In this document: positions 21,549-62,600 of the stretch, one piece after another
How positions within the stretch are numbered: the stretch's first letter is position 1
How the letters are laid out: each line of letters starts with the position of its first letter
Assembly: GCA_000004985.1 (NCBI GenBank)
Contig: GG738850.1
Strand: one strand, 5' to 3'
Length of the DNA: 64,000 nucleotides
From: Naegleria gruberi
Lineage: Eukaryota
Translations under genes and position numbers: made by a program
The notes under the pieces: model-generated
Database searches by the model: none
Told to the model about the DNA's origin: nothing
The model's input: only the letters and a program-made list of their open reading frames with translations

Positions 21549-24500
21549 TTAAATAACGAACAAAATACAACCCAAAACAAAAATTAACACTGCTTTCGTA
21601 ACATTGCAAGAGGTAGCTGCCAATGAAACTGTTGGTATGATAATCTTTGGTAATTCAACAGTAACTCTTTCAATTGAAGTTCCATCGGCTGCAAATGTGG
21701 AAATTGAAGCAACTGGTGTTGAGCTAGTTCCAGAATTAACCTTAACTTTCATTGTGATGGTGTAACTTGCTGGTGAGAGAGTTTGACCGAGAGTTGCATT
21801 CAATTTGTTGGAGGCATCAACATTCATTGAAGTAAATTGAATGACAATACCTTTTGAATCTGTTATAATGAAATTATCTGAAAGTGCACGTTTACTTTCA
21901 GATGTAAGTGTGAATGCTGCAGGAAGTGACATGACCAATGAACCTCCCATTGGAATTGGCTTTGTAATCACCATGGCTGTCTTGACACTCACCATTCCAC
22001 CAACAGGAACATAGGCAGTAGTACTTGTTTGTGGAGTAACAGGATTAATTGGATTGGTAGAATTATTGTTTGTAGAATTTGTGTTGGAGGTGTTATTGGC
22101 AATGGTTGAATTGTTGGTGGATGTACCATTGTTAACTACTGGATTAGTGGATGAATTAGTGGAATTGTTTCCATTATTGTTAATGACATTGTTGTTTGGA
22201 TTTGTGGAATTTGAATTGGTAGTATTGGAAGTGGATGTGTTGTTTCCATTCATTGAATTATTTCCACCAGAATCTGTTGTATTAGTTGTTGATGTATTAT
22301 TTGTTACAATAGAACTGTTACTATTTGTGGAGGAATTATCAACATTTGTACCATTACTAATAATTGAGTTATTTCCACTTGTTGTATTATCAACATTAGT
22401 ATTGTTACCATTGTTAACATTTGTATTATTACTGGCATTGGTATTATTGCTAGATGTAGTAGAATTGTCTACATTTGTGCTATTATTTCCATTGTTAACG
22501 TTAGTATTGTTATTGATGTTAGTGTTATTGCTGTTAGTAGTAGAATTATCAATATTTGTATTGTTATTATTATTAACATTAGTATTATTACTATTTGTGG
22601 AGGAATTATCCACATTAGTATTATTATTATTAGCATTGGTAGAATTATCAAAGTTAGTGTTATTATTACTACTACTTGTTGAATTATCAACATTAGTAGC
22701 ATTATTATTAAGACCTGGATCAGTATTATTATTCGAAGGAGAATCATTGACTGAAGATACAGTAAAAGTACCAGTGCTCTTAACAGTTAATATATAACTA
22801 CCACTGGATTGATCTTGTGTTGCAGTGCAGGTATCATCTGCAACATAATCACCAACAGAATCGTCCCATTTCAAACATTGATAAGTGGTTGTTGAAATTG
22901 TTCTCAATCCACGCAATTTTCTTGTAGAGCTACTGATTGAGGAATCAATTTGTAACTCGGCAATGCTTTCGGTATGATTCACATTCAATGCTTGATTCAA
23001 GTGTGAAATGACAAATTCAACAGCATTGGCCAATGCCTTGGAACAATTTGGTTTGAAAACATTAAGAGTAATATCAACTGAATCAGTAACATTGGACAAA
23101 GTTTGTAATAGATTGAACTTTTCACTCAATTTGAAACCATTTTTACCAGATATAGTTTCATTCAATCCATTTAAGAACGACTTGGTAACCTTTCTTCCGT
23201 AGGCCTTAACATCCTTATTAAGTAAAATAGTGGCTGGCATATCTGGAACCTTTTGATTTGAAGCAATATTGACCAATGAAGTATAAACTTGTTTAAGTTT
23301 TTCAGTTGGTTTCTCAGTTTTCAATTTTGAAGGTAAAATAGATCTGACACTTGAAGTAGTAAACAAAGTATCAGCTACTTGTTGAGTTTGTGTAAGAGTT
23401 TCATCAGATACTGGAATTGAACTATCCAGAGCTGTTGTTGTAGTTGAAATTAAAGTATCAGCAATTAAATTTGAAGTGTTTGATGACATCATGTCCATAT
23501 TTTCAGTTGCAATATCCAAAATAGTTGCTGTTGAAGCAACAAGAGATTCGGTTGGACTAGTAATAGATGCTTCTTGTTGAGTATTATTCAACATGGTGTT
23601 AATAACTGAATCAGCAACTTGAGCCAATTCTTGTTGAACCGTTTCACTGTCATTTGATTGAGAGTAATTAGCATTGGCAATGGATTGAATTAAAGCAGCA
23701 CCATCTGAAACTGGAATATTACTTTGATCAGCAATAGCATTTGCAGTTGCAACAGTTTCGTCCAAAGTTGCCTCGGTAACATTTACAGTTGTAATGGCAC
23801 TCGAAGAAGCACCCATTGCATCATAGACAGTTACTGATACTTCATTCACACCTACGATACCCAACTTTAATGAATAGAAACTAGTCTCAGAACGTGACGA
23901 AACAATGGTCCTTACTGAATTGGAATTTGGACCTCTTGTACTAAATTCATAAGTTAATGGAAGTTGCGCATCAGTCCAACCATTACCACATGAAACCTTA
24001 AAATCTGTCAATAGGGAAACACCAGAGCTTGGCTCAACGAGTAATTCACCAACTGTTGGTGGTGAGTTCACAGTGAAGAACACTTCAGCAGTACCTTCTT
24101 TATCGATAGTTGTGTTTCCAATAATAACAGTATCCTTAATGGTAATCTTCATTTCATTGGAGCTACCTGGAGTTAATAATTTTGATGGAATGATAATGTA
24201 TGCCTTTGTTACTTCCACACCAGTTAAATCAATCGATGAAGATTCCCATAAGAATGATTTGGAATCACTGAGTACAACTGGTTGAATTAACAATGCTCTC
24301 AAAACCAAATCCTTTGATGGATTGACAACTGATAAATCAACGCCGTCCATAGGCATAATTGACGAGGTAATAACAGTGTCCTTTGAAATTTCCAAAACGG
24401 TAACCTTAAGAGAATCAGTAGCAGTTCTGTTTTGCTTTCTATAAGTAACAGTGAAAAGATAGGAACCAGGATCCATTAATTGACTCATTTTCATGGTATT

Positions 24501-27500
24501 TGTAATATCGAGTGGGAATGAACCATTTGTACAAACGTCACCACTGTCCAAATCAAGACAGTCAATTGCAATGGATTGTACCTCATTGGTTTTTGATGGA
24601 TCTTGAGCAATAACTGAGAGTGAAACTGGATCTTCCATCGATTGAATTACATCTCTCAATGTAAATGCTACTTTCAATGCTGCAGAGGAAGCAGTTACTT
24701 TAAATGGCAAAGAAACATCTTGAACTCCGTCTTGTCTTGCAGTGAGCATGAAATAATATTCACCTTCCATTGGAAGAACAGTTCTTCCAGGACCAATAAT
24801 TAATCTTCCATCCTCAACAATGAAATTAGTAATGTTAGTAACACTGCTATAATCACTATTCATAGAGTAAATGAATTTAACACGACCTCTTCCCTTATTG
24901 CAAGCTCTATTGGAATAGGAAATGACTGGTGTAATGATGTTTAATAATCCCAAAGTATTAGAAATTGAAACTCCTTCCTTAATTGACAAATTAGGAATAG
25001 AATCTTCACTGACAACAAAGGAAATTGTTTGAGTTGAAGTAATTTCTGGAGCCAATGGACTACTGACAGTAACTTGAATAGAATAAGTTCCATTACTCAT
25101 ATTATTAGTATCCAAGATTAAATTTGGTTTGTTGAAAGTGGAAATCAAAGAGCTGAGGGTTAAAGAATCATCGGTGGTTGGTGCAGAAACAACTTGCCAT
25201 GCGAATTTCAATGGTCTTCTATCGAATGATTGAGAATTGGCAGCACTAATGAACAACTTATCGCATCCACGTGACACAACTGATTTTTCAACGTTGATTT
25301 GTGCTTCAGGTGATTGTGGTTTGAAGGATCCTTGCTTGATGGTTATGGAAATAGATTCAGATGATTGTGGATAAACGCTTAATGATAAATTTTGACCAAT
25401 TGAAATAGATGAACTATATCCAAGGATAATAGTTAATTTAGATTCACCATTCAACATACACATTGCTCCCTTTCCAATAAAATCAATTGAATCTGGTCTA
25501 ATTAAATCTTGACATGGAATAATTGACTTGATAGTGGAATAAACAGTACCATAGACTATATCAGCCTTTTCAGATAATTCAAAGTTATCAACAACGCTGA
25601 AATCACATTTGCTTCCATACCATCCTTGGGCACATTGTGAACAATTTGCACCAATTGAGTGACCTGAACATTTACAAGTACCATCATTCAAACAAATTCC
25701 TCTATTAGAACATGTCAATGCAGGAGAACATTGAATTTCACAATCAACACCAACAAATCCATTTGCACATGATTGACAGAAAGGTCCAGTAAATCTCTCT
25801 TCACATAAACATTTCAATTGTTGAGTACAATTACCACGATTATTACAAGTGTCTGAACTACAACGTGGAGTTTTACATTCTTCCCCATTGAAGGAAGGTA
25901 AACAGGTTGAACAATAAGTGGAATTATCATAATTACCATAGCAAACACATTGATCCTTAGCAATACATTTTCCTTTTTTGGAGCAGACATTAGAATCATA
26001 TCTTCCAACTCCATTACAAGTAAAAGTAGCACAATTTGGACCAGTATATCCATCAGTACATGCACATGTATTAGGTTGTGTACAAATGCCTCTTCCACCA
26101 CATACATTCTTATCATTAGCAGGCAATTGACCACAAATTGGAATTTTACAATCAACACCAGTATATCCATCCTTACAATTGGAACATGATTGGCCTTCAA
26201 AGTTACCAGTACATGTGCATTTGCCTTCCATTGAACATTTACCACGGAACGAACAACCACCTTGAGTTTCAGTTCTTCCATTACATGTTGGAATATCACA
26301 CATTTCACCTGAAAATCTTTCTTTACAGATACAATTGTCTGGTCCAATACATTTACCATTTCCAGAACACACTGATGGATCAGTGGATGCTTTTTGGAAA
26401 CAAACTAAGCTTTGACATCTATCTCCTGTATATCCTTGATTACAAATGCATGTATCTGTACTACCACATTTGCCACGACCTGAACATGCAAGTGGATTTT
26501 CTGAAGGTAAGCCAAAACATTTAATAGCTTGAGTGGAATTGGCTGAGAAACAATCATTGGTGGAATTCAGTGTTGAACAATAATCGGTAGCCATGTTAGA
26601 AGATAATCCCATTTCACTTGTTACAATATTCTTACAAGCATTGTTACACAATGGTTGAGATAAAACATTGGTTGAATTGATTGAACAAGATTTGAATGTT
26701 TTCAAACAGGATACTCTTAAAAGACCCTTTTTGCATGAATCTCCACAATTCTTGTATCCAACACTGTCAAGTAATTCAGAATTCTTCTTGTAAAGTGTTG
26801 TAATTTTTGTGGAAACTGACAAGGCCATTTTAGATTGAAAATCTGCTGGACTTGTTGAAATCACTTGACTCATTAAATCATCAGTGCTAATCATGTAATT
26901 AACATGATCAGAACATCCACTTAGTAAAGTCTTTGGAGGAATGATACATTGAGCAGCAGGTTTAAAATATTGACAATCTGTACCATAATAATTAGATGGA
27001 CAAATTCTTTGACAAGTTGTTGAATCATCAGACAATTGGAAACCTTCTGCACAATCAGTACATGGTCTATTGTTTCCCAATGTAGTATAACCCTTAGTAC
27101 AAGTACAATAAGGAGTATAGGCAGATGAATAAGAACATGTACCATTTCCACAACCTTGCTTTCCACAATTTGGAACCTTTGTAATACATATTCCATTAGC
27201 ATATATTAAATTATCAGAGCATTTCAAACAAAGTGGATACACCATTCCTTCGATAGCACATTTATCACAACTTGCACCACTATATTTGGTATTAGAGCAA
27301 GCTGAGCATGGAGCTGACATATTCACAGTCATGTAGCCAGTATTACAGACACATTGAGCAGTTGAGAGTGTAACTGCTTTACAAGCACCATTTCCACAAT
27401 TAGGTGTTGGACACACTGGTAATTTTACATATGGTCTATCTAATACATTTGGTTTAGGTGAATAATTACAAACAATCAAGGTAGCTCCATTCAATTCTGG

Positions 27501-28032
27501 CTTGTTGAACACTTTTGCACAGGTAGCTCTGGAACACCCGACTTTGGTGGAAGCTGCTGAGACAACTTGAATATAATGTTGGCAATCACCACTCTTTAAA
27601 CATAAGCTTCCTTAATTGTAAATCATAAACACTTACAGAACAATAATTATTTGTAAAGTCATATTTAGAAGATTCTAAAGTCCATTCATTCACAATATCC
27701 ACCACTGACATATTTCCCTTCATACTGACATGAATATTTACGCCCAAATTGAGAGAATTACTTGATGGTCCTGCAGCACATTTAGTAAGCCAAGAAGCTG
27801 CCCTAGATGCCAATTCATCACTCCATTCCAAGGCTGCTAACTTGTTAAGTGGAGTCGGAGCCACTGATAAACGTGCGGAATTGTGGGCATTCAAAATGGC
27901 TGTCTTTTCTGAAGAAGTTAATTCCGCAGCCCTTACTTGTTGTTGTTGATTCATCATCAACATGGATACAACCAAAAGCATCACCAACACAAGGCTAACT
28001 TTGTGATGATGGTGCGGATAAATGATGTTCAT
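21549..28032 (-). CDS. Giant (about 2120 aa) secreted/membrane protein: signal peptide + CAP (SCP/PR-1) domain + about 20 EGF-like Cys repeats + REJ/PKD-like module + N/S/T-rich linker + C-terminal hydrophobic tail; complement(join(21549..27593,27637..28032)), 43-nt intron 27594..27636
   Basis: CAP motifs spread over both exons (AILNAHNSARL, LEWSDELASRAASW, then after intron QHYIQVVSAASTKVGCS...LIVCNYSPKPN); GTAAGT...AAAG intron is phase 0; tracked 'start' at 27512 is GTG; C-terminus ...AVLIFVLGCILFVI (TM or GPI signal). Confidence 0.75.
22060..22760 (-). repeat. Coding low-complexity array: degenerate repeats of (N-N-[ST]-N/T-N-V-D-N-S-T) inside the giant CAP-EGF gene
   Basis: Direct repeats of gttaataatg / attattact-type units on the + strand; translate to NNNTNVDNSTT... 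on the minus strand. Confidence 0.6.
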
Positions 28033-28377
28033 TCTTTTTTTTTGCTGATTTGAAGATTAATATTTTTGGCGAATTTTCTTCCTTAAACACTTGGTTGAAG
28101 AACAGCTGTAAAAAGTTCTGTTTCAAGCATTGAATATTGTACTGCTCAATTTTCATGTGGCGATTGTTGAGAATGTGTGGCTAGGGAATTGAGGTTGGTG
28201 GTTGGTGTGGAACTTGGGAATTAAGGCAATACGGAGAGTCGTTATTGAGAGATAATCTGTCAGGATTATTAAATTACAGTTCGTTGAGTGAAAATCATGC
28301 ATTTCCACAATTATGTGGAAAACTTTTAATTAAATAAAACCCGATACAATTCCTCCAGTTTGACAAAAATCAAAAAA

Positions 28378-48140: not shown

Positions 48141-48256
48141 TTTTTATTATTAATTGAGGTTCTTTGAGATGAAAAGTGTACAATTTTGGCGCCAAAATTT
48201 TGGAATGAAGCGTTTTACTAAGGCCAAGTAAGGAATCGATTCGTTCTTAATGTAAT

Positions 48257-48678: not shown

Positions 48679-51600
48679 TTAAACACTATAACTTAACATT
48701 TCCACTTGAGCGTTAGGATCCCCAACTACTGGAACCTCATAGACAGGACCCTTTCTTCTCTTACAACAATCCCACTTCAATTTTAATAAGACAACAATAA
48801 AAACAAAGACTGTACATAATAAACAAGTGAAACCAAGAATTGTTCCAAGAATTATACCCAAATATCGATCTTCTGCTATTGGTGTGGAAACCTTTACAAC
48901 CTTTTCAAGAATATTTTCAATAATCATAGTGCTTGTTGTAGAGTTGCATTTACAAGTTGCGGTAGAGTTGGAGCTCACCACAACAACACAGGATGGATCA
49001 ACTCCAACAGTGAAATTCTTAAATGTTCTACATAATAATTCTGAAGATCTATACACTTTTGTAATTACATTTTTGTTTGATTGAGTGGATTTAGTTGTGG
49101 AAATCAAAGAGTTGCTTGGATAATTCTTGACGTTAGATATTGTCATATTATAAGTGATTGGAGTCAATACATCTGCAGTGGATTCCAATAATTCAAAGAA
49201 TAAGACATTGCTTCTAAGAAACATGGTAGAAGATATTGATGTTTCAATCTTAGATGTGTTCACAGTGATGGTGCTATCACTTAACACCACCTTAGCGGCA
49301 ACAGTGTCAGAAATACCAAATATATCGTTGGAGGAAATTGAAATAAAGGAAATAGACTTTCTGTTAGATTTTTCGCTCAAGTAGAGAGGCATTTCTGGAG
49401 GCAACAAAACAACAGCACCTTCAAGTGGTGATGTTAATCTTGATTCAAAACCTGCTCTAAAGAGCTTGTTGGATGAAATTGAAGCAAAGACTGTCTTCAA
49501 TTGTAAATCTCTTTCACCAATGTAAATACCTCTCAACATTAAATTAGAAACACGTTTCAGCATTGTGTAGAGAGAACTGAGTTGGTCTGATGCTTGTAAC
49601 TGATTGTATGTAATATAATTGTAGATAGAATTCAAGATATTGGTCAATAACTTGTCAACTCCAAAAGGAACTCTAAGCTCCTTATTATATTCGCAGAATT
49701 TAAGTAAGGTGTTAACAATATCATAGGCCTTTTCCATACTATGTCCATCCAATTCATCATACTTTTCAATCAATGAATCCAAACCGTATGCTTGAAGAGT
49801 CAAGTAGGTTTCTGTAATAATTTCATATGGATTTCTAGCGTCGAATGTTTGAATAAATTCATCCATCAAGGCAACTCTGATTTCCTTATAGGCAGCAAAA
49901 TCTTCCTCTGTAACACTGCAATCTGCCTTTTCAAATCCAGATGCACATGAACATCTATTGGTTTCAGTAATAAGAGTTCCTCCATTTTGACAAACGAGCT
50001 TCACATCTCTTCTTCTTGCACCACTGGTAATCTTTGTTAGCATACCATCAGCGACTCTTGAAATTGTTGCAGAGTTGAAAACCATCTTGGCTGTATCACC
50101 ATCTTTGAGTGAATTTTGAATTGTACTGTAAGAGGCAACCTTCTTTTTAACTTCCACGACACTCTTTACAGCTGCAAGATCAATGGTAATGTCCTTTTTG
50201 ATTTCAGTGTAGGCACCAGTGGATTTATCTGTTATTCTAATGTATGTGGTGACGATCTTGTTAGAAAGTGGTGTGTATGAACATGGCAGCTTGGTTGAAT
50301 AGACTTCTCCGTTTTGATAAAGTGGAATATTAGCACCTGATTTGTCATCAATAAAACCATAGACCACTTGAAGGGTCTTTTGAGCGTTTTGACAATTGGT
50401 ACATGCGAATGAGAAACTAGTTTCTAAGGCAATACCTGATGAAGGAGAAACAGTGCATGGACAAGCTTGAGGTGGAGCAGCAATTTGGAAAGAGTATGAA
50501 TAGACAGCACTCAATCCATTTCTAATATCAGTTACCTTCAAGGACAAGACATAGGTAGCTCCATCTTCCAACGTTGCAGGATCAATAACAACAGAGTTGG
50601 ATAGTGTTGGGCTGGAAGTCATTTTAGAGATAACTGCTTCACCATTTGAAAGTATCTTTGAATTCAAAGTCCATTCTCTGCTAATATACTGATCAATTCC
50701 AACAGATTCTCCATTGGCAGTGACTGCAAGTTGCAAGTTAACAATATCTTGTTTCAAAATGACAGTCTTAGTTGGGACAACTGAAATAAGTGTAACGGTT
50801 GGAGGAACTTTCTTACTTTCAGGGAAAACAAAATCAAGAGTAGTTTGAACTGATCTTATTCCCTTAACAACCGAGAGGGTTAATTTAAGAGTTGGCATCG
50901 AGTTGTAAACTTTGAGGTCAGCTGAGGAAATTAAAGGTCTAACAGTTCTATCATTTGAATACGAGATAAGGGCAGAATCAATAGTTGTTCCACACCCAAC
51001 ATTATTAGTTGCATCGAAGCAAGACCATGTCCATGTTTCAGCCTCAGATGTGACATCAGGATCAACAAGATTGACAACAATAGTACCCATATCGGAAGAT
51101 ACTTCATCACTATATAAAATTAAGCTCAAAGGGCTTGGTCTAACAGTAATCTTAATGGTGTCGGATGCAGTCGAAAGAGGATTCACCACTGAAGTTACAG
51201 TGATTTTGAATTCATAGACGGCTTCAACCAGACCAGAAAAGTGGGTGACTGCCAAGTTGTTAAACTTGTCTGTTTCAAAAGTTGTAACTGGACCTGATAA
51301 TTGTTCCCAGACAATGTTTAATTGTTGGTTTGGATAGAAGCAACTTGGAAGCTCCAAATGCTTCTTAATGACAACAGGAGATTCATACTTGATAATAGTT
51401 CTGTCATTGAAACCAATAATGTATAGCACTGGAAGTGGAACGGCTGCCTTTGAAACACTCCAAATACTCATAGTACTGACCTTTCCAGATATTGAGCTTT
51501 CTACTTGAAGACCGAACTTGTACTCACCAGGATATTGCATTGCAATGTAATCAAGAGACAAAACTGAGGTGTTAGGCATAGAGACAGAAAGGAAATTACT

Positions 51601-54600
51601 TGGAGAAGAAACAATTGTCCAATAATATTTCAATGGCTTTCTATCTCCAGAATAAGAAGCAGAGGCATCCAGACTAAAGTTATCGCAAGTACCAATATTA
51701 TTCAGACCAGAAAAGACGACAACTGGTATTGCTGGATTATCGGCATTCAAAACATATACATCTTGTAAATCAGTACCACTGGCATCAAATACCAGTCTAT
51801 TCATTCCAACAACTGCTCCTGGCATTAAGGAATAATCATCTCCAAAGAGAATTGTAAATTCACCACTACCTCTATTTGTCCACATGCATACAGGACCAGT
51901 ACCAAACAAGGATAATTGGGAGCTTGAAATTAATCTTGAACAATCAACTTTTGATTGAGTATAAGAAGCAGGACCAATAACTTTGAAAACAATGCCATTA
52001 AACATGTCCAAGAATTTGGCAGGACCGAATATTTGAGTTGAACATTGTGAACCATAATAACCAGTTTGACACTTGTTACAATTGGATCCTTCCCAATACC
52101 CTTCAGTTGGACTAGCATAACAAGAGCATGTTCCATTATTGGTACAATCTCCATGGTTAGAACATGTTGTTGATTTTTCACAAAATGTTCCACAATCAGA
52201 ATTAGGATTGTAATAGTTGGTCTTGCAAACGGAACAGAACTTTCCGTCCCAATTACCATTGCAAACACATTGGAGAGCTGAATTACAATAGCCATGTTGG
52301 TTACAAGTAGTAGCAGGATCACACTTGAGCTTCTTACATCCTGTTAATTCAGTTTCATAGTCAAGTCTACAAACATCACAATAGGTTCCTTGCCAATAAC
52401 CATCTTGATTATTTTGATTGCAAGAACATGTGTTGTAATCTGTACAATTACCCTGTCCACTGCAGACACCAGATTGATCGAACCTAATATTATTACAAGT
52501 GTAATATTGACAATAATCACCAGAGTATCCTGTACTGCATTGGCATCCAGTGGAACTACAAATACCCTTTCCATTACATACTCTTGAGTCTGTTGAAACA
52601 ACAAATGTATTCTCCTTACTCAAACATTGAAGATATTGACATTGATTTCCAGTGACTTTAGAAAGAGCAGTTGGAGCTGGGCAATTACATACATTAGGTG
52701 ATGAACAGACACCTTTTCCACTACAAACATTGGAATCATTTGCAGGCTTTCCAAAACAAACTGGAATTTCACATGTGGCTCCAATGTATCCATTATTGCA
52801 AGAGCAAGTATTTGGAGCTGTGCAGGTTCCATTTGAGCTTGAACAAACTTTTGAATTATTAGCTAAAATTCCAAAACAGATTGGAATATCACAAGTAAAG
52901 CCAGTATATCCTGAAATGCATTGGCAAGAATCTGGAGCTGAACAAATCCCTTTTCCTGAACAAACTGAACTTGAATTTGACAGAATGTCATAACATTTTT
53001 TGTGTTCACAGGCCTCTCCTGCATAACCTTGTTTGCAGGTGCAATTGTTTTGACCTACACAATAGCCATTACCTGAACAAGCTTGAGGGTTCAAGCTTGC
53101 GATTCCGTAGCAAGTAAAAGTACCTGGAATGATAAACTCACAATTATCTCCATAAAATCCTGCGAGACAACTGCAATTATTGACAGATACACATGCACCT
53201 CTGGATGAGCAAACAGAAGAAGAATTGAACATGGTTCCATTGCAGGTATGATGTTGGCAGTCATTACCAGTGTAGTTCTTGTTGCAAGAACAAACACCAG
53301 ATAGACAAATACCATTAAAGGAACAAACTGATGGATCTTCGGCTGTTTTACCATTGCATTTCACATTTTGGCAATCATTTCCGTATGTTGAGGAATTACA
53401 ATTACAAACTCCTGAAATGCATTGACCTGCATAAGAACAAACAGATGGATCTTCAGCAGTCTTTCCATTACATTTGATAAATTGACAGTCATTACCATAG
53501 TTGGAGGAAGAGCAGGTACAAGCTCCTTGATAACAAGTGCCATTGGAGGAACAAACACTTGGATCGACTGCTGTTTTTCCATTACATTTCATGAGTTGAC
53601 AGTCAGATCCGTAAGTGGTGGCGTTACAGCTACATGTTCCAGAAATACATTGACCTGCATAAGAACAAACAGAGGGATCTTCAGCAGTTTTACCATTACA
53701 TTTGATAAATTGGCAATCATTACCGTAGTTAGTTGAAGAACAGGTACAAACACCTGAGGAGCATGTTCCATTCGATGAACATACTGTTGCGTTTTCTGCT
53801 GTTTTTCCATTACATTTCAAGAATTGACAATCGTTACCATATGTAGTTGAATTACAATTACACACTCCAGAAATACATTGACCAGATGAGGAGCAAACAG
53901 TGGAATCATTAATCATCTTTCCATTGCACTTCAACATTTCACATTGGTTACCATAAACAGTTGAGTTTACACAGGAACAAACGTCCTGAGCAATGCAAGA
54001 ACCCATTCCACTGCAAACACTTTGACTACCGGCAGAAATTCCAAAACATGTAAAGAGACTTCCTGAACAATCATTTCCAAAGAATCCTGTATTGCAAGTG
54101 CAATTATCAGTTGAAATGCAAGAACCATGGCCAGAGCAAACTAGAGTTTCATTGCTCATGACACCACTACATTTCCAAACTTCACAATCAGATCCATAAA
54201 AACCAGAAGAACAATTACAAGTGCCAGTTAATGCATTACAATCACCACGTGAATGACAAACTGAAGAATCATTGGCAAACTTTCCATTACACTTGGAAAA
54301 CTCGCATTCATTACCGTAGAAATCAGATCTGCAAGCACAAGTGTCCAATCTGATGCAATCACCTCTGGAATTACAAACTGAAGAATCATTGGCAAGCTTT
54401 CCAAAGCAAGATGGCTTATCACAGAGAGGACCTGTCCATCCTGGCTCACATTGACACTTATCAGTGCCAACACAAGAGCCATGTACACAACCTGGATTAC
54501 AAGACAAACTACAATTTGCAGTTATGATACCATCTTCACATTGACACAAATTATTGCCAGCACAAATACCATGACCACTGCAATAATTCAAAGCGCTGCA

Positions 54601-55723
54601 ATCAAATTGATCACCAACATAGAGAGACGCAGTTGTAAAAGCAGCATTTTCACAAGCATACTTGTAGGCAAGTTTTCTTCTTGGATGGGAGCAAACATTT
54701 GTTCCCTTTCCACCCATTCCATGATAGGCACCTGTTTGACTTCCACCAATACCAATGTAGGCATCAAGTTTTCCACTCTCAACACAAGAGGCATTTGAAG
54801 AGGTTACAACACCAAATCTCACTTTCAAATAATTACTATTTCCCATGTTGAATCCAATTAATTTGTTGGCACAATATTTGGCAGATGTGTAATCTGGAGC
54901 TAGAGAATAGAAATTTCTAGCAGTTCTCAAAGATCCTGGAACTACTCTGGATTGATAAGTTTCATCAGAGAACGCTTCTAACAATGACTTTTTGTTAACT
55001 GTAAAAACAGCAGTATTGGTCTTGTTAGACTCGACAATGAATCCGTCATGATCCAAAACAAAAGCTGTCTTAACTGTTGTCATTTTCAAAGAGTGAGCAA
55101 CATGTTTAGTAAAAGCCAAAGTCTTCAAATTAGTATATTGATATCCAATACTTCCAACTGTGGCGTTATTGGTCCAATATTGACTAGAATAGGAGAAGGT
55201 TGCATCAGATCCATCCTTCAAATCCAAAGCAAGAGCCCAAGCACCTATATTTTAACACAAAGGAGCCTTGTTAAATATGAAGAAGGAATAATAACATACC
55301 CTTTGATGAAACATCAAACAAGCACTTGGTTTGATAAGTAACCTTATTGTTATTTCCATCCAAAAGGAACAAGTAGAACAAGTTTCCAGAGATACTTGAC
55401 ACTGACTCTCCCTTACTCAAATAATAATCTCTGATGGCACCACAACTTACAGCAGCGGTATCAGCAGAAGATCCATTAGAGACTTTCAATTTGAGTGTAG
55501 TAAAAGAATCAATCATCCACTGACCCAAATTATCGGAAGGAGAAGAAGCAGCAATTATAGAACAGTTAAATAAAACAATTAATGCAATAATGGCCATAAT
55601 CATGGAGGCGCTTAATAAATTGGAGAATGATTTCTTCAACCTATTGAAACCACCATCATCATCACAGCGTTGAACTTTGTTGCTCAAATGAGGACACGTA
55701 AAATGTCCCCTCATTGAATTCAT
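48679..55723 (-). CDS. Giant (about 2300 aa) type I membrane protein: signal/anchor, N-terminal Gly-rich globular domain, about 35-40 EGF-like Cys repeats, REJ/PKD-like module, Ig/FN-like spacer, TM and 37-aa cytoplasmic tail; complement(join(48679..55234,55291..55723))
   Basis: Exon 1 has hydrophobic MIMAIIALIVLFNCSIIAASS and ends ...DVSSKG|GTATGT; exon 2 begins AWALALDLKDGSDATF (tracked ORF 'M' is TTG); repeats of CSG.G.C...C.C..G..G..C; C-terminal TM LGIILGTILGFTCLLCTVFVFIVVLL then KLKWDCCKRRK. Confidence 0.75.
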
Positions 55724-56101
55724 TTTTTTTTACACTTGAATCTTTGCAATTTGCGCGGGAGGAAAGGATGCAAATGTTTTTGGTCTTAATTTCCCAAAGG
55801 AAACATACTTGCTGAATATAAAGCATGGAGACGAAGAAAGATTCTGAAAAAGTTAAGGCTGTCTTGTTTCTTGCTTCGTAATAATCGTTGAAAAAATAAC
55901 AACTTTTTTCCTTAATTATTTTGTGTACAATTAAGAACTGAAGGTGATTAAGGTAAGCTTTACTTTTATAATGGACCCTCCTCATCCCGCCAAAATACTC
56001 TCTAATGAAAAGTCATCATATGCGAGTCTTAATTAAAAAAAATACCTCTGAGAGAGTACACCCACCACAATCAATAATATATTTTCATACCTCGCGAAAT
56101 T

Positions 56102-59100
56102 ATGCAAATATCATCACGGAATGTGTTTGTTGTGGTATTGTTGGTAATTGGTTTATTGTCCAATAATGTTTATTCCTTTAATGCTTCAGTGTGCCCCACT
56201 TTCAATAGCCAAGCGTGTAATGGTGCCGCCTTATTGAATCCGTGTGCTTCTGGTGGTGAAGAAACAAATTATTGTGACTGTTTTGGATTTGGGAGTGGCG
56301 GGTTTTCAGCCTTTTATGGAGGTGTTGCATGTGAAACCTTTCAATGCTATAAAGTAGACATGCATATTGGAATTGGTCTGTACGACCAATATATTTGTTC
56401 AAATAATGGAGATTGCATTGGACCCAATAGTTGTCAGTGTAATCAAGGTTATACTGGTTACAAATGTCAATACTCTATTGCAGATATTTCTTGTTTTAAC
56501 TTACCCGCAAATAGTTCTACTGTCTGTAGTGGAAAAGGAAAGTGTACACATCCGAATGAATGCCTTTGTAATAAGGGATATGAAGGTTTAAATTGTGAAA
56601 AGTTTAGATGTTATGGTCATTTGAACTCGGATTCGAATGCTTGTAGTGGGAAAGGAAAGTGTATAGATTGGAATGTCTGCGATTGTGACAACGGAAATTC
56701 TGGAAAAAATTGTGAACTAGTGTCCACTGTTGGTAGCTCCATTCAAAGAGTATGTTTTGGAATACCTAACACTAACAATTCGGTCTGCAATAACCGTGGT
56801 GTTTGTGTTGGACCTGATTCCTGTGTATGTAATCCAGGATATTTTGGATCTGAATGTGAACATTCCTTCTGTTTTTCTATTCCTCAAAATGACTCATCTG
56901 TTTGTAATGGCAGAGGCTTTTGTAATGAAAAAGATTCATGTAATTGCCTTTCTCAACTCTCAAATGTTCTGATTTCAGGAAGTGAATGTGAATATTTACA
57001 GTGCAAGGGAACTTTTGGCCAATACTATTTCTCTACAGATAGTACCAATGTATGCTCTGGAAATGGAATTTGCACCCTAAACGGTTGTAACTGTACTGAA
57101 GGGTACTCTGGAGAATTTTGTCAAGATTATTTCTGTGGTGGTGTCCCAAATTACAGTCCATCGTCATGCTCTGGACATGGTAACTGTATTGCTCCAGATG
57201 ATTGTTCTTGCTATACTAATTCAACTCATGGTTTTTGGATAGGATCTGATTGCAGTGTTTGTGATTCATCTCACCATGGATCTGACTGTTTGTCCAGTGT
57301 CAACTGTGACAGATATGAAACTTGTAATGGCCAGGGAAATTGCTCTTCAAATCATACATGCCTTTGTGATGATGGATTCGAGGGAGAATTCTGTGATGAA
57401 TGCTCAAATGATAGATATGGTTGGGATTGTAAGCAGTTTTGTTCAAGAATTTCAAGCTGCTATGGTCACGGTGAGTGTTCCAGAGATGGCCAGGTATGTG
57501 AATGTGATTATTCCCAAAGCACTGGTTTTTGGAAAGGAAATAATTGCTCCTCTTGTGCTGATGGTTTTTTTGGAGACGATTGTTTGACAAAGGTTGGATC
57601 AACCTTTGAGTTTAATTCCCTAGGAAATGAGATTTACTTTGATTTGAATGGTCCTTCAACCTATCTTGGTGGTGTTGTTGATTGTTCAACCCTCTTATCC
57701 TCTTCCTCTTACTCATCTATTGGAAGTTCATTAGCTAAATGTATTTTCAAAACTCCTTTAATTCCATCAAGAATTTCTATAGAGCTTGCAAGCACATCAA
57801 CTATTAAGCCAGGCGACTCCTTGGAGGTTAATTTGAAAGTTTTTGATGCACAACATCTACCAAGATCTCTCTCCACACTCTCATGTTCAGCATCTAATAT
57901 ATCTTCTCCTATTGCTGAAATTGTTTACCACAACACCTTAGTGAGATATTCTGAAAATTTGGTTCTTACAGGAAGAAATAGATTAGGTATTCCTCGTGAA
58001 CGCGTATTGTTCTATGAGTGGACTTTAATTTCAAGTACCTCTTCTTTTAATTCTCTTTCTAGTGTTGTGTCGTCAGGATCAGGTCTAGGAAAATCAGTTC
58101 TCAATATTTCTAACACGGATTTACCAGATAACAATGCATTTGCAATTCAACTTAAAGTGAAACACCCAGACTTTAACTTGTGGAGTAATTATGTAATCGT
58201 TAACTTTACAAAAGAAGATCAACCAATAGTTCAATCACCGTACAAAAAATATGAAGTGTATATATATCCTCCTTTAGACCCCTATTATGTGACAGAGTTT
58301 GTTTTTCCAATCACTGTTCCGTATCAAGTTTTGGAAGATGGTGTTCCAGTGGATACTTCTTCATTTACTGCAATTAGTTGGACATTTGATCCAGATATTC
58401 AAGCAAGTGGGCAGAGTATTTTTACAGTGGATACAACAACAAATGGTGTACTTTCTTTTGATGCAACCATTAGTGAAATGGAAAATACTATTGTCACAGT
58501 TAAATGTGACGTTATAGAAAACAATGTTGTATTAACATCCAGTTCTTTCAAAATCAAATCTGTTGCAGAGTATAAACCTTCTCTCAAAACAAATGAGACA
58601 GATTATGGGGTTTTCTTTAATATTGGATCTTTGAAGGGAATGCCATTACAGCAGAGCTATTGGGAATGTCACGCACCAACACAGCACCAGGGAAAATGTG
58701 AACCTGAAATCGAGGCTTTCTTCAAAGATGCAACTAACAAGAAAAGCGTCTTTATTCCTAATGAATATTTATACAAGTACAAAGTACTTTATTATGCTCG
58801 TGTTTCAATGGTTGTTAATGGGGCTCATTATAAGGGACAAGCGGATGCTTTTGGTAAAAAGGGTTTAGAAATCTTAAAGATTGGAAATGAAGATGTAAAG
58901 CATTATGTCTATTTGAGTAGAACGCAACAAACTAACTACATTTTGTACTATGACAACACAAGACAATCAATGACAAGCCCTCCTTCATATTCAATGTTTG
59001 ATGAGCTTGGAAATAACATTACAGATATTCTTGTTTTGGATGCAACAAACAAACGTATTATAATCAATCCTACCGCAATACCATCTCAATCAACTTTATT

Positions 59101-59674
59101 AACCTTGTCCCTTACTGACACTTATGGAAGCATGATTTATAAGAAAAACCTTCATGCATTTGTTGACATGCTCCCTAAATCAAATTGTACTGTTAAAATT
59201 GCTGAACATCCGGTTACAGTTAGTGTTTTTAATGGAATACTCTACTTTTACAATATTACAGTAGCATGTGTAACTTCTTCAAAATTGCCAACAGTTAAAG
59301 TGTATTTGAAGAACCAAAATACCGAACTATTCGTATGTGATTTTGATCCACTATTGCTTCCAAGTCAATCTTGCTACATTCTACTTCCAGAATTGATTGG
59401 ACCAACAGATGTGTTTGCCAATGTTACTCATGCAACCCAGGAATTGGTTGCCCTATTACCTGTTGCAGAAGTAAGTGAATTGATTCCTATTGGAAGTCTA
59501 AGAGAAAGACAAACAACTCCCTCAGCAGATATTGATTCTCTTCAACAAATGTTCTACCAATATTTTGCCAATCCAAGAGATGTTGAAAACACATCTATGT
59601 TACTTCAAACTCAAATCAAAAAACTGCTCTACTTACACTACCCAGAAAAGGAGCTTTCGTATCCAAATCTCTAA
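56102..59674 (+). CDS. Secreted 1190-aa paralog of the giant EGF/REJ-like family (signal peptide, about 14 EGF-like repeats, REJ/PKD-like module, no TM in this ORF)
   Basis: ATG at 56102, signal MQISSRNVFVVVLLVIGLLSNNVYS; EGF-type Cys spacing; shared post-EGF motif GPSTYLGGVVDCSTLLSSS...VLFYEWTLISSTSS aligning with GPASYTQSKVDCSRLISSS...PLKYYWTIVSSPS in 48679..55723. Confidence 0.75.
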   Translation: MQISSRNVFVVVLLVIGLLSNNVYSFNASVCPTFNSQACNGAALLNPCASGGEETNYCDCFGFGSGGFSAFYGGVACETFQCYKVDMHIGIGLYDQYICSNNGDCIGPNSCQCNQGYTGYKCQYSIADISCFNLPANSSTVCSGKGKCTHPNECLCNKGYEGLNCEKFRCYGHLNSDSNACSGKGKCIDWNVCDCDNGNSGKNCELVSTVGSSIQRVCFGIPNTNNSVCNNRGVCVGPDSCVCNPGYFGSECEHSFCFSIPQNDSSVCNGRGFCNEKDSCNCLSQLSNVLISGSECEYLQCKGTFGQYYFSTDSTNVCSGNGICTLNGCNCTEGYSGEFCQDYFCGGVPNYSPSSCSGHGNCIAPDDCSCYTNSTHGFWIGSDCSVCDSSHHGSDCLSSVNCDRYETCNGQGNCSSNHTCLCDDGFEGEFCDECSNDRYGWDCKQFCSRISSCYGHGECSRDGQVCECDYSQSTGFWKGNNCSSCADGFFGDDCLTKVGSTFEFNSLGNEIYFDLNGPSTYLGGVVDCSTLLSSSSYSSIGSSLAKCIFKTPLIPSRISIELASTSTIKPGDSLEVNLKVFDAQHLPRSLSTLSCSASNISSPIAEIVYHNTLVRYSENLVLTGRNRLGIPRERVLFYEWTLISSTSSFNSLSSVVSSGSGLGKSVLNISNTDLPDNNAFAIQLKVKHPDFNLWSNYVIVNFTKEDQPIVQSPYKKYEVYIYPPLDPYYVTEFVFPITVPYQVLEDGVPVDTSSFTAISWTFDPDIQASGQSIFTVDTTTNGVLSFDATISEMENTIVTVKCDVIENNVVLTSSSFKIKSVAEYKPSLKTNETDYGVFFNIGSLKGMPLQQSYWECHAPTQHQGKCEPEIEAFFKDATNKKSVFIPNEYLYKYKVLYYARVSMVVNGAHYKGQADAFGKKGLEILKIGNEDVKHYVYLSRTQQTNYILYYDNTRQSMTSPPSYSMFDELGNNITDILVLDATNKRIIINPTAIPSQSTLLTLSLTDTYGSMIYKKNLHAFVDMLPKSNCTVKIAEHPVTVSVFNGILYFYNITVACVTSSKLPTVKVYLKNQNTELFVCDFDPLLLPSQSCYILLPELIGPTDVFANVTHATQELVALLPVAEVSELIPIGSLRERQTTPSADIDSLQQMFYQYFANPRDVENTSMLLQTQIKKLLYLHYPEKELSYPNL

Positions 59675-59684
59675 TCATAAAATT

Positions 59685-62600
59685 TTAATTGAATTCATTA
59701 TTGATTTTTCTCTTTCTTGAGAATATTTCTGCATCTCTGGAAACAAATGGAAAAACAGCAAACCAAATCATACACAATAAACAACTAGAAACCAAACACC
59801 ACCCAAGACCTAAACTGAATGCAATCTCATTATTATCACTAACAATACTATCGTCATCATTGAAAGAGAATGGGAATCTGAATATGGTCTCAGTAATCAT
59901 GGTAGAAATCAACATGGCCGAGAGAAGCAGAGGGGCAAAGTATTTGACTAAAAAGCACCAAACCCACAAAACTGTCTGTGTTGCCAAATCAGTGCATTTG
60001 TAAACAAATGTATTCTCAGTGAAAATATTTTCCTCTCCATCTTCATTCTCCTCAGTAGCATACTTTTGAATAATCTTTTGTTTTTTAGCAAGAATGTGGT
60101 TTTTAAATCTCTCAACAGAGAAGAAGGCCGCTCCTTTCCAATATTTCTTTGGGTTGTTTTTCAGTTTTCTGAATGCATGTGTGAGATTAGGGCAGTGAAT
60201 CAAATATTTGAAAAATACCACAAAGTGGGTGGCCATGATTTTACAACGTTTTGTAAATCTTGCACACACAGAGGTGTCTCCCTCCAAAACCATATCAACT
60301 ATTCCCTCCTCTGATGGCTCTATCATTTGAATCATTTCTTCTTGCCATTTTTCATGGTTAGCTGCCAAAGCTTCATTAATCTTGTTAACGATATCCTTCT
60401 CTTCCAATTCACTGCATTGACTTTCAAACATTTTACTTCCAAATGCAAAATATCCAACAACTATACACTCAGCCAATCCCATCAAAACTAGACAATAATT
60501 TGAAATGTAGTGATCCACAATTCTAATCAAGTAGTATCCATTATTAAGAGTGAACGGCAATCCTAAAATGAAGCCAACAAGGCAAACAATAAAAGTTGCC
60601 ACGTTTCTGTTAGTCAACATTTTGTAAGTGAATGGCATGTCTGGTACATTGTCCTCATGAAGCAAATCTTGCTTCTCTGGAGGAAGATTAATAGTCTCCT
60701 TCTTAATAGCCACAGGAGAAGATGAAATCACATTGGATGAATCGATGGTATCCTCCAGTGGTACTTCATGTTGAGCATCAACTGCTTGTTCTGTCATTTC
60801 ATGTTCATTGTGGAAATTCTGCATGTAAATCTTTTGAACATACTTCCAACGTTGAACTTTGAGATTCCACTGCATTGAGAAGTGATCCATCAGGGCACTT
60901 GTTACACATTCCACACAAGCAAAGGCACTATCTAATCCCATTGAAAATATAGTGGCAATCAGTAAGAGAGCAGAAAAGTGAGGAACTGGCAAATAGGAAA
61001 CAGCTTGGAAGTAGACAATAAAAGCCAATCCCAATCCTGAACGAACTGTATCACTAGTAAAGAGCTTGTCAAAATCTGCAAGAGCTGTTTTCAAATAATA
61101 TTATATGAATATTAAGGTAAAAATTAATATTAAAAAAGGTTTGTGAAAAAACTTACCATTCTCACCAAACTTGTCATGAGCCATAACACCCAAAATTGAA
61201 AAGATAGTAAAGCCACTCAAAAAGGCAATAAAGCAATTGGCTGCCACCACAACAACTGAAGCAATGATAATATTTGATTTTCTACTCAAATATGAAGAAT
61301 AGGTAGAGTTGGTTCCATTTCCAACACCAACACTGAAGAATACCTGACCAGCAGCCGCCAACCAAATTTCAGTTTTCAGCAAGACACTGAAATCTGGTTT
61401 GAAAAAGTAGTACAAACCAGAGCTACTTCCCACTTCGAACAATATAGTTCTCAACAAGTAAATGGCCAATAAACAAATTGGCAAAGGTACTGAAATGAAA
61501 ACTACAAATTTGATACTGCTCACACCCTTAAAAACGCACAAAAAGTTGAAAAATACCACAACCAGTAAGCCCAATAAAATTGGCATGGAAACAAAGTCTA
61601 CTCCATAAAAATTCGATGGATAATTGCTTATCAATGTAGTTGGTCCAGTGGATTTTCTCAAAACTACAGAATTGAAGAACTCTTCAGCCTTCCCAATCCA
61701 TGGTAATTCAGCTTGGAATAAGTTTACAAAATAAACACAAGTCCAACTCAGAATTACATTATAATAACTCAAAATTAATAAACTTCCAAAAACTGTCATG
61801 GCCAAACCAACTCCACAAGCTCTTCTATTCCACTTTGAAATGGATAATATGGAAGATCTTCTCGACATGACACCAAGTGAAAATTCCAACAAGGTCAATG
61901 GCAATCCCAAAACAACCAAACAGAAAATGTAAGGAATGAGAAATCCACCACCTCCATACGTATAAACAAGATATGGAAAACGAATCAAATCTCCCAAACC
62001 AACACTCGAACCAATGGCTGCAAATAAAAAGCTAATAACTGATCCAAAATGTTGTCTCTTATCATCTTCCAATCCATTCGATCCATCATCCACAAATTTG
62101 AAACATTTCTCATTGGCAATACTTGCCAAATCCAAAGAACTCGTCTCTGAAACATTATCTGCATAATAATCCATACTAGAAGTGGCAGATAAACTTTCCT
62201 CTTCAGTTGTTGTACCTTCCTCTGATTCGAATGCTTGCTCTTCACTCTCAACTTTTGGACCCAAATCTGAATGTCTATGAATGTGATGAGAAATCTTTGG
62301 CTTGTGATTTGGTTTTCTATGGTGATGTCCATGATGACGATGATGAGAAAGTCCCCTTGTGGCATTAAGTTGTTGTTGCTGATGATGACCACGAAGATTA
62401 TTACGAGAACTTCTTCGAGAGGAATCTCTCTTCACTTCTTCCATCATTCCAGCCTGATGTTCCCTCTCAACATCTTCCATCATGATTGTTTCCTCCAACT
62501 CTTCTGGATGATGATTATGAGTGCCTTGTTGTTCTTCTCCTTCTCCAATCATTCCTCTCTTATCAAAGGCTAGAGATGATAAAGTTGTTGGAGCAGCTCC

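What the first reader, a model, noticed from the sequence alone, without database searches (positions are those of the whole stretch)
55724..56101. Divergent (head-to-head) pair of giant paralogs sharing an about 380-bp intergenic region
The minus-strand giant gene starts near 55723 and the plus-strand paralog starts at 56102. Their 5' ends face each other across an AT-rich 378-bp spacer. That spacer carries homopolymer A/T tracts and a GC-richer core (tttgcgcgggaggaaaggatgcaaatg). This is a candidate bidirectional promoter co-regulating two family members.
Basis: seen in the sequence. Interest (0 to 1): 0.5.

Follow-up and report, generated by a model that had tools for sequence, protein, structure and literature searches.

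The report
Ordinary divergent gene pair in Naegleria
Two distantly related surface-protein genes of the amoeba Naegleria gruberi do sit head-to-head across 378 bases, but this spacing and orientation are routine in its compact genome and nothing shows that they share one promoter.

Summary
The window is Naegleria gruberi NEG-M nuclear DNA. The described layout is real. A 2329-aa EGF/REJ membrane protein gene lies on the minus strand (first ATG 55723, one 55-nt intron). NAEGRDRAFT_63451, a secreted 1190-aa EGF-array protein, lies on the plus strand (ATG 56102). They face each other across 378 bp.

Little about it is unusual:
- About a quarter of neighbouring gene pairs in the window are divergent, with spacers of 216-1175 bp.
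- Spacer GC (33%) is slightly above the intergenic mean (31%).
- The A-run before the ATG is a generic start context here.
- The two genes are old members of a family with at least 24 N. gruberi genes, and each has a closer relative on another scaffold.
- The spacer has no inverted symmetry, no other copy in the window, and no significant similarity to the region upstream of the third paralog.

One lead remains. A short CpG element (CGCSMAAAW, E2F-like) lies upstream of all three paralogs and of unrelated genes. It is enriched in the window but absent from 62 kb of related Naegleria DNA.

Most likely the spacer holds two separate end-proximal promoters. Co-regulation is untested.

The parts
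55724..56101 (.). 378-bp intergenic spacer between the two start codons
   Evidence: 33.1% GC. No Rfam match. No notable repeats. No other copy in the window.
55300..55723 (-). Exon 1 of the minus-strand EGF/REJ gene. First ATG at 55723 in an aaaaaaaaATG context. A hydrophobic signal segment spans aa 41-59.
   Evidence: Compared with relative L001, codons 1-40 show 5 nonsynonymous and 0 synonymous changes, and codons 41-141 show 3 nonsynonymous and 9 synonymous. The true start may therefore be Met41 at 55603.
55245..55299 (-). 55-nt GT..AG intron of the minus-strand gene
   Evidence: The junction is supported by homologue P0135, which aligns across it (YQAKCLFDQSGGWTLALK against YQTKCLFDVSSKG|AWALALDLK). 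The intron is conserved in L001.
48679..55244 (-). Exon 2 of the minus-strand gene. The whole protein is 2329 aa: EGF array, PKD-like and REJ domains, transmembrane segment at aa 2277-2295.
   Evidence: Pfam: EGF_2 3.7e-63, REJ 6.4e-29, K319L-like PKD 1.9e-09. Hydrophobicity.
56102..59674 (+). NAEGRDRAFT_63451 (XP_002681420). 1190 aa: signal peptide, EGF array, C-terminal region with no Pfam hit, no transmembrane segment.
55724..55731 (-). A8 run directly before the ATG of the minus gene (read as T8 on the plus strand). This is the generic start context.
   Evidence: About half of the 24 start codons in the window are directly preceded by an A-run of 5 or more (read from the -40..-1 listing).
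55749..55759 (-). CCCGCGCAAAT, the CpG element 26-36 nt upstream of the minus gene's ATG.
   Evidence: Conserved in L001.
55766..55774 (+).
   Evidence: alignment columns 137-145.
55985..55996 (+). TCCCGCCAAAAT, an E2F-like element (reverse complement ATTTTGGCGGGA), 106-117 nt upstream of the 63451 ATG, inside the second GC patch
   Evidence: The identical 12-mer lies upstream of 63434 at 18457-18468.
56035..56042 (+). A8 run within TTAATTAAAAAAAAATA, a TATA-like stretch 56-72 nt upstream of the 63451 ATG
   Evidence: Its function is inferred only.
21549..28032 (-). Third paralog. 2146 aa: N-terminal CAP/PR-1 domain, EGF array, REJ domain. Intron at 27594-27636.
28033..28377 (.). 345-bp divergent spacer upstream of the third paralog. 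It carries CGCCAAAAA at 28063-28071, which is -31..-39 from that gene's ATG.
   Evidence: No significant alignment to the 55724-56101 spacer.

Best explanation
The 378-bp region is an ordinary divergent intergenic region of the compact Naegleria gruberi nuclear genome.

It most likely holds two separate promoters facing opposite ways. Each lies within about 120 bp of its own start codon, and DNA of low constraint lies between them. The two genes are old, architecturally different members of a large lineage-expanded EGF/REJ surface-protein family that has stayed locally clustered.

Any co-expression would come from generic promoter elements that unrelated genes also carry, not from a dedicated shared bidirectional element.

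Shown: gene models, orientation, distance, paralogy, the ordinariness of the layout, and the lack of shared or symmetric sequence. Inferred: where the promoters lie and that they act independently.
For: - Organism and gene identity: 10 of 10 ORFs are exact matches to N. gruberi proteins on one 707,703-bp scaffold.
- Compactness: the genic fraction is about 81%. Convergent gaps are as small as 10-43 bp (from the ORF coordinates).
- Short promoters suffice: tandem upstream gaps of 76-332 bp serve other genes. That space must hold a whole promoter plus the neighbour's 3' end.
- The layout is common: six other divergent pairs in the window have spacers of 216-1175 bp. One of them is the third paralog with an unrelated neighbour, at 345 bp.
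- Composition: spacer GC of 33.1% lies inside the intergenic range of 23-34%.
- No shared or symmetric sequence: alignment scores against the third paralog's upstream region and against the spacer's own reverse complement fall within the shuffle distribution (fraction of shuffles reaching the score 0.24, 0.77, 0.91).
- Each end has its own GC patch with a CpG element pointing at its own gene. The sites are 55749-59 on the minus strand and 55985-96 on the plus strand, about 230 bp apart.
- The A-run before the ATG is generic.
- In the 95%-identical relative, three deletions of 2, 10 and 9 bp fall between -43 and -156 of the minus gene's ATG. From -1 to -42 there is only one substitution and one 1-nt insertion.
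- Not sister paralogs: the minus-strand gene's best N. gruberi relative is P0021 (785 bits, 34% over 1574 aa). That of 63451 is P0040 (414 bits, 31% over 929 aa, same short secreted architecture). Both are on other scaffolds, and the pair score only 302-324 bits with each other.
Against: - No transcript 5' ends or expression data were available, so independent promoters are inferred, not shown.
- Three family members within 35 kb is far more than chance. For about 24 members among about 15,700 genes, roughly 0.04 adjacent pairs are expected (my estimate). Selection for co-location or co-regulation therefore cannot be excluded.
- The CpG element occurs upstream of all three paralogs. This is compatible with a common regulator.
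- The right-hand half of the spacer has no comparative data.
Confidence: 0.62

Rival explanations
1. It is a true shared bidirectional regulatory region. One factor-binding element, or a pair of like elements (the CGCSMAAAW / E2F-like sites), drives both genes together. The third paralog would respond too, making the local EGF/REJ cluster a co-regulated unit.
For: - The motif CGCSMAAAW has 8 matches in the window against 1.14 expected (0 of 100 shuffles reach 8).
- Seven of the 8 matches lie in the 19% of the window that is intergenic.
- Six of the 7 loci are within 120 bp upstream of an ATG, including all three paralogs.
- The 63451-proximal site fits the canonical E2F consensus TTTSSCGS.
- E2F/DP factors are inferred to be ancestral to eukaryotes and are reported in Excavata (PMC4862756).
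- Adjacent genes tend to be co-regulated across eukaryotes (PMC3500266).
Against: - The pattern was derived after the fact from four of its eight matches.
- It also sits upstream of unrelated genes: the F-box gene 63434, ferrochelatase, and a thioredoxin-like gene. It is therefore not family-specific.
- It has 0 matches in 62 kb of N. lovaniensis and related DNA, where 2.5 were expected.
- The canonical E2F pattern is only weakly enriched: 8 matches against 3.0 expected, with 4 of 100 shuffles reaching 8. It misses the sites of the minus-strand gene and the third paralog.
- The two sites in the spacer are about 230 bp apart, each beside its own gene.
Confidence: 0.2
2. The real 5' end of the minus gene is not at 55723. 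Translation starts at Met41 (ATG 55603), directly before the signal peptide. The first 120 nt of the apparent ORF would then be 5' UTR or promoter, making the non-coding gap about 498 bp.
For: - Against the 95%-identical relative, codons 1-40 carry 5 nonsynonymous and 0 synonymous changes. Codons 41-141 carry 3 nonsynonymous and 9 synonymous (Fisher exact p about 0.009 by my calculation).
- The only hydrophobic N-terminal segment starts exactly at Met41.
- The 49%-identical homologue P0133 has only about 10 residues before its hydrophobic segment.
Against: - ATG 55723 has the generic aaaaaaaaATG context seen at about half the starts in the window.
- It is in frame, and the frame stays open in both the window and the relative.
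- A ribosome scanning from any transcription start upstream of 55723 would use it.
- Short cytoplasmic tails of signal-anchor proteins are often poorly constrained.
Confidence: 0.3
3. The pair is a recent inverted tandem duplication that copied the promoter along with the gene, so the two genes are co-regulated through duplicated promoters.
For: The genes are adjacent members of one family. A third member lies 20.6 kb away, from the end of that gene at 28032 to the minus gene's stop at 48679.
Against: - Only 35-37% protein identity, confined to the EGF array and about 170 aa beyond it.
- Different architectures: 2329 aa membrane-anchored against 1190 aa secreted.
- Each gene has a closer relative on another scaffold.
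- The spacer has no inverted repeat.
Confidence: 0.03

Closest known systems
Bidirectional promoters of divergent gene pairs less than 1 kb apart (mammalian definition of Trinklein et al. 2004; yeast GAL1-GAL10 and the H2A-H2B histone pairs). From my own knowledge.
   Same: Head-to-head orientation. The start codons are 378 bp apart. All promoter information for both genes must lie in the spacer.
   Different: - No mapped transcription start sites and no expression correlation.
- No shared or symmetric element was detected.
- No CpG-island-like composition: two GC patches of about 30 nt in otherwise 33% GC DNA.
- The arrangement was not found conserved elsewhere.
COL4A1-COL4A2 type head-to-head paralog pairs that share a short bidirectional promoter. 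From my own knowledge.
   Same: Two large paralogous extracellular or surface protein genes transcribed divergently from one short spacer.
   Different: The collagen IV pairs are conserved across animals, their products assemble together, and the shared promoter is shown by experiment. Here the paralogs are distant, differ in architecture, are not sisters, and nothing links their products.
Lineage-expanded EGF-array/REJ-domain surface proteins of Heterolobosea (N. gruberi 'predicted protein' or 'GPS domain-containing protein' entries; relatives in N. lovaniensis, N. fowleri, Acrasis kona, Percolomonas)
   Same: Both genes carry teneurin-type EGF arrays (Pfam EGF_2, EGF_TEN, EGF_Teneurin). The minus-strand gene and the third paralog carry REJ domains. 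At least 22 annotated N. gruberi homologues lie on many scaffolds.
   Different: - 63451 has no REJ hit and no membrane anchor. It groups with P0040 as a short secreted subtype.
- The minus-strand gene has an extra N-terminal domain of about 350 aa. Its CLFD..GGW(T/A)LAL motif recalls fibrinogen or intelectin-like domains, a resemblance from memory that Pfam did not confirm.
E2F/DP binding sites (consensus TTTSSCGC). From my own knowledge.
   Same: The site upstream of 63451 (ATTTTGGCGGGA), that upstream of 63434 (TTTTGGCGGGAAA) and the palindrome ATTTTGGCGCCAAAAT at 48183-48198 fit the consensus and lie close to promoters.
   Different: The sites of the minus-strand gene (TTTGCGCG) and the third paralog (TTTGGCGA) do not fit. 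The genes concerned are not cell-cycle genes. No binding data exist. The enrichment was not reproduced in N. lovaniensis loci.

Membership tests
Bidirectional promoter (divergent pair less than 1 kb apart) | Two genes on opposite strands with their 5' ends facing each other | tested here: met
   Minus gene ATG at 55723, plus gene ATG at 56102.
Bidirectional promoter (divergent pair less than 1 kb apart) | Transcription start sites less than 1 kb apart, with no intervening gene | tested here: inconclusive
   The start codons are 378 bp apart, or 498 bp if Met41 is used. No ORF of note, RNA family or repeat lies between them. Transcription start sites are not mapped, and no upstream exon is needed for either gene.
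Bidirectional promoter (divergent pair less than 1 kb apart) | Correlated expression of the two genes | not testable with these tools
   No paper cites the gene identifiers. Supplements of the Naegleria RNA-seq and microarray papers are not held.
Bidirectional promoter (divergent pair less than 1 kb apart) | A shared or symmetric cis-element serving both directions | tested here: not met
   Alignment of the spacer to its reverse complement is no better than shuffles (0.91 of shuffles reach the score). Only weak AT-rich inverted repeats were found. The two CpG elements are separate, about 230 bp apart.
Bidirectional promoter (divergent pair less than 1 kb apart) | Arrangement conserved in related species | tested here: inconclusive
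   - A 95%-identical relative is known only from a 759-bp contig covering 187 bp of the spacer.
- No orthologue above 43% identity was found in N. lovaniensis or N. fowleri.
- The relative's contig carrying the neighbouring SNF gene has no homologue of either gene.
- Two N. lovaniensis family loci are not head-to-head pairs.
EGF-array/REJ surface-protein family | Array of teneurin-type EGF repeats | tested here: met
   EGF_2 scores 3.7e-63 for the minus-strand gene, 5.7e-19 for 63451 and 4.4e-08 for the third paralog.
EGF-array/REJ surface-protein family | REJ domain (PF02010) after the EGF array | tested here: inconclusive
   Met for the minus-strand gene (6.4e-29) and the third paralog (3.3e-28). 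63451 has no REJ hit, also at E below 0.1 for its C-terminal 590 aa. 63451 aligns to the minus-strand gene only up to about 170 aa past the EGF array.
Recent inverted tandem duplicate | The two neighbours are each other's closest relatives | tested here: not met
   Minus-strand gene: P0021 785 bits against 63451 302 bits. 63451: P0040 414 bits against the minus-strand gene 324 bits.
E2F-type promoter element | Match to TTTSSCGC close to the promoter | tested here: inconclusive
   The 63451-side site matches (TTTGGCGG at 55987-55994). The site beside the minus-strand gene does not. Window enrichment is marginal (4 of 100 shuffles reach the count), and the derived pattern is absent from 62 kb of related DNA.
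E2F-type promoter element | Bound by E2F/DP, and target genes regulated with the cell cycle | not testable with these tools
   No binding or expression data are available.

The most novel reading that the evidence does not exclude
The short CpG element CGCSMAAAW (E2F-like) may be a real promoter-proximal control element specific to N. gruberi. It would tie the three clustered EGF/REJ genes, including the head-to-head pair, to a common programme such as the cell cycle or differentiation. The cluster would then be a co-regulated surface-protein unit in an early-branching eukaryote whose promoters are essentially uncharacterised.
Probability: 0.15. Interest if true: 0.4.

Novelty: new member of a known kind. 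Interest (0 to 1): 0.14.

Why it matters
As it stands, it matters little. It is one of thousands of short divergent intergenic regions in a compact protist genome.

It has modest value as a practical reagent, because Naegleria promoters are almost undescribed. Transfection of N. gruberi with endogenous promoters has only recently been reported (PMC7200600). A 378-bp fragment carrying two promoters, with two candidate elements marked, could be tested directly in that system.

It also flags that a 7-kb gene next to NAEGRDRAFT_63451 seems to be missing from public protein sets.

Tried and rejected
- Rfam scan of 55000-56800: no match at E up to 1.
- Bacterial promoter and terminator scan: nothing found, and the model is not relevant to a eukaryote.
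- Direct and inverted repeat search in 55600-56250: only short AT-rich or chance matches. The 12-of-14 repeat GAAAGGATGCAAAT / GAAATTATGCAAAT loses weight because part of the first copy is deleted in the relative.
- Local alignment of the spacer to the third paralog's upstream region in both orientations, and to itself inverted: within the shuffle range.
- blastn-short of the spacer against the window: only 11-12-mers at E of about 1 or more.
- Exact look-up of my spliced models for the two large minus-strand genes: neither is in the protein collection.
- Look-up of the N. gruberi locus of 63451 in the assembly index: not on record. P0133: not on record.
- JGI metagenome scan with the 63451 N-terminus: only one hit, at 36% identity.
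- Synteny through the SNF transporter: no Naegleria orthologue in the protein search. The one related contig lacks the pair.
- N. lovaniensis family loci L003 and L004: not syntenic and not head-to-head.
- Literature: no paper cites the gene identifiers. Nothing on Naegleria bidirectional promoters or intergenic architecture. Expression supplements are not held.
It was replaced.

Full report
**Source of the window.** Ten of ten long ORFs are exact matches to Naegleria gruberi NEG-M proteins, all on one 707,703-bp scaffold. The window is therefore nuclear DNA of a compact, intron-poor protist genome. It is 34.5% GC, and about 81% of it is genic by my gene map.

**Check of the observation: the plus gene.**
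- The plus-strand ORF 56102..59674 is exactly XP_002681420 / NAEGRDRAFT_63451, 1190 aa.
- It begins with a hydrophobic signal-peptide-like segment and has no membrane anchor.
- The open frame reaches only 8 codons upstream of its ATG.

**Check of the observation: the minus gene.**
- The 150-aa ORF from ATG 55723 joins the 2182-aa ORF through a 55-nt GT..AG intron (55299..55245). The join is in frame and gives a 2329-aa protein.
- Homology supports the junction. In a search of 1.84 billion representative proteins, P0135 aligns across it (YQAKCLFDQSGGWTLALK against YQTKCLFDVSSKG|AWALALDLK).
- The spacer 55724..56101 is therefore 378 bp.

**Check of the observation: paralogy and domains.**
- The two products are true paralogs: 35-37% identity over 492-565 aa, E = 9e-88.
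- Both carry teneurin-type EGF arrays.
- The minus-strand gene also has PKD-like and REJ domains and a C-terminal transmembrane segment.
- The third gene (ATG 28032, 43-nt intron, 2146 aa) has a CAP/PR-1 domain, an EGF array and a REJ domain.
- The homopolymers (T8 at 55724-31, A8 at 56035-42) and the GC-richer core are present.

**Is it more than chance?** For orientation and spacing, no.
- My gene map has about 30 adjacent pairs, and 7 are divergent. This is the 25% expected from random orientation.
- Their spacers are 216, 345, 378, 432, 785, 984 and 1175 bp.
- The third paralog is itself head-to-head with an unrelated ORF across 345 bp.
- Tandem genes get by with 76-332 bp upstream. So 378 bp easily holds two promoters.

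**Composition is not distinctive either.**
- The spacer is not unusually AT-rich: 33.1% GC against 31.0% for all intergenic DNA in the window and 35.3% for genic DNA.
- About one A/T run of 7 or more is expected per 378 bp of intergenic DNA; the spacer has two.
- The T8 tract is simply the aaaaaaaaATG context of the minus gene. About half of the 24 start codons in the window are directly preceded by an A-run of 5 or more.

**Adjacency of family members is beyond chance.**
- At least 22 annotated N. gruberi homologues are scattered over many scaffolds.
- Random placement of about 24 genes among about 15,700 would give roughly 0.04 adjacent pairs. The gene number is from my knowledge of the genome paper.
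- The local cluster of three is therefore a product of local duplication, but an old one.
- The minus-strand gene's best N. gruberi relative is P0021 (785 bits, 34% over 1574 aa).
- The best relative of 63451 is P0040 (414 bits, 31% over 929 aa, the same short secreted architecture).
- Both are on other scaffolds, while the neighbours score 302-324 bits with each other.

**Tests of the shared-promoter idea: sequence within the window.**
- The spacer has no Rfam match, no meaningful repeats and no other copy in the window.
- Its local alignment to the region upstream of the third paralog, in either orientation, falls within the shuffle distribution. So does its alignment to its own reverse complement.

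**Tests of the shared-promoter idea: a close relative.**
- The only close relative found is a 759-bp ENA metagenome contig (L001, 95% identical). It covers exon 1, the intron and 187 bp of the spacer.
- In it, GGATGCAAA (55766-55774), the right part of the core, is deleted.
- Ten bp (55840-55849) and 2 bp further up are also deleted.
- From -1 to -42 of the minus gene's ATG, a stretch that includes CCTCCCGCGCAAATTGCAA, the only differences are one substitution and a 1-nt insertion in the A-run.
- At 95% identity this is weak footprinting. It does show that the ATGCAAAT part of the core is dispensable.

- K-mer counting on 24 oriented upstream regions and pattern searches show a short CpG element, CGCSMAAAW.
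- It has 8 matches in the window against 1.14 expected, and 0 of 100 shuffles reach 8.
- Seven of the 8 matches fall in the 19% of the window that is intergenic.
- Its positions relative to start codons are:
  - -26..-34 of the minus gene's ATG;
  - -106..-114 of the 63451 ATG;
  - -31..-39 of the third paralog's ATG;
  - -27..-35 of the unrelated F-box gene 63434;
  - -110..-118 of ferrochelatase;
  - as a perfect palindrome, ATTTTGGCGCCAAAAT, about 45-58 nt upstream of a further minus-strand gene.
- Several copies fit the E2F consensus.

**Cautions on this lead.**
- The pattern was derived from four of its own matches.
- The a priori consensus TTTSSCGS is only marginally enriched: 8 against 3.0, with 4 of 100 shuffles reaching 8. 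It misses the sites of the minus-strand gene and the third paralog.
- The derived pattern has no match at all in 62 kb of N. lovaniensis and related Naegleria DNA, where 2.5 were expected.
- If real, it is a general promoter element, not a family-specific one.
- The two copies in the spacer lie about 230 bp apart, each next to and pointing at its own gene. This fits two promoters better than one shared core.

**Conservation of the arrangement.**
- No orthologue of either gene above 43% identity turned up in N. lovaniensis, N. fowleri or any metagenome.
- Two N. lovaniensis family loci are neither syntenic nor head-to-head.
- A JGI metagenome contig carries the orthologue of the neighbouring SNF transporter (58-89% identity). 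It has no homologue of 63451 or of the minus-strand gene beside it.
- The arrangement is thus not shown to be conserved, but the sampling is thin.

**Position of the minus gene's start.**
- Against L001, codons 1-40 carry 5 nonsynonymous and 0 synonymous changes. Codons 41-141 carry 3 and 9 (Fisher p about 0.009 by my calculation).
- The signal segment begins exactly at Met41.
- Either the first 40 residues are an unconstrained cytoplasmic tail, or translation starts at ATG 55603 and the non-coding gap is 498 bp.
- The generic A-run context and the open frame favour Met1.

**Mechanism I commit to (confidence about 0.6).** Two independent core promoters, each within about 120 bp of its start codon, are separated by poorly constrained DNA. 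The gene models, distances, family relations and absence of shared sequence are shown. The promoter positions and their independence are inferred.

**Rivals.**
- A shared element or common factor giving co-regulation: about 0.2.
- A displaced start at Met41: about 0.3, and compatible with either view.
- A recent inverted duplication: effectively refuted.

**Comparison with what is known.**
- By the loose definition of a divergent pair less than 1 kb apart, this is a bidirectional promoter region.
- It resembles COL4A1-COL4A2-type paralog pairs in layout only.
- Co-expression and conservation, the features that make such cases interesting, are untested or not found.
- It is a new but unremarkable instance of a known kind of arrangement.

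**Limits.**
- Only 64 kb of N. gruberi DNA was available.
- No transcript data could be reached.
- The literature held nothing on Naegleria promoter architecture.

Noticed in passing
window 48679-55723 (-): The 2329-aa EGF/REJ gene seems to be missing from public protein sets. An exact look-up failed. A word-based search of 5.8 billion proteins gave no hit above 43% identity. A full phmmer scan of 1.84 billion representatives found nothing at 50% identity or more covering residues 141-380. Neighbouring genes are all present.
   Followed up: partly
window 59685-63077 (-): An SNF/NSS sodium symporter gene is interrupted by one in-frame stop. About 69 nt around that stop have no counterpart in the relative L005, so it is probably a small intron (my reading). 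Its best database hits are prokaryotic NSS transporters at about 40% identity, for example a Pacearchaeota protein. No Naegleria protein, not even a self-hit, was returned. It may be an unannotated gene of horizontal origin.
   Followed up: partly
window 48256-48318 (+): A tRNA-like gene scores 43.4 bits against Rfam tRNA (gathering score 29). By my reading its anticodon is GUC (Asp). It has a very short D-arm and was missed by ARAGORN.
   Followed up: partly
window about 47400-48140 (-): The apparent 1379-bp convergent gap contains a probable multi-exon minus-strand gene. Its ATG is at 48140 in an aaaaaATG context, and the exon fragments look thioredoxin-like by eye. A perfect palindromic E2F-type site, ATTTTGGCGCCAAAAT, lies at 48183-48198, just upstream.
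   Followed up: no
window 9714-9722, 18457-18468, 28063-28071, 48183-48198, 55749-55759, 55985-55996: The CpG element CGCSMAAAW is enriched about 7-fold in the window and lies almost only within 120 bp upstream of start codons. It is absent from 62 kb of N. lovaniensis and related loci. It may be an N. gruberi promoter element or a local fluke.
   Followed up: partly
window 55604-55723 (-) and L001: The first 40 codons of the minus-strand gene evolve without visible constraint (5 nonsynonymous, 0 synonymous). The next 101 codons show 3 nonsynonymous and 9 synonymous changes. The annotated-style first ATG may not be the real start.
   Followed up: yes
window 55300-54600 (-), protein residues about 120-350: The N-terminal domain of the minus-strand gene's product has no Pfam hit. 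Its CLFD..GGW(T/A)LAL..YW(T)N motif is shared with metagenome proteins P0134 and P0135 and recalls fibrinogen or intelectin-type domains. That resemblance is from memory and was not tested.
   Followed up: no
window 28378-28950 (+): A 190-aa ORF with a good aaaaaaATG context lies head-to-head with the third paralog. It has no Pfam hit. From the run of GenBank accession numbers, I infer it is not annotated as a separate gene. It may be an unannotated gene or a 5' exon of the carboxypeptidase gene at 29081.
   Followed up: no
window 17252-19684 (-): Two adjacent tandem F-box-like genes, 63434 and 63435, have weak F-box hits at the same position. They look like another local paralog pair.
   Followed up: no
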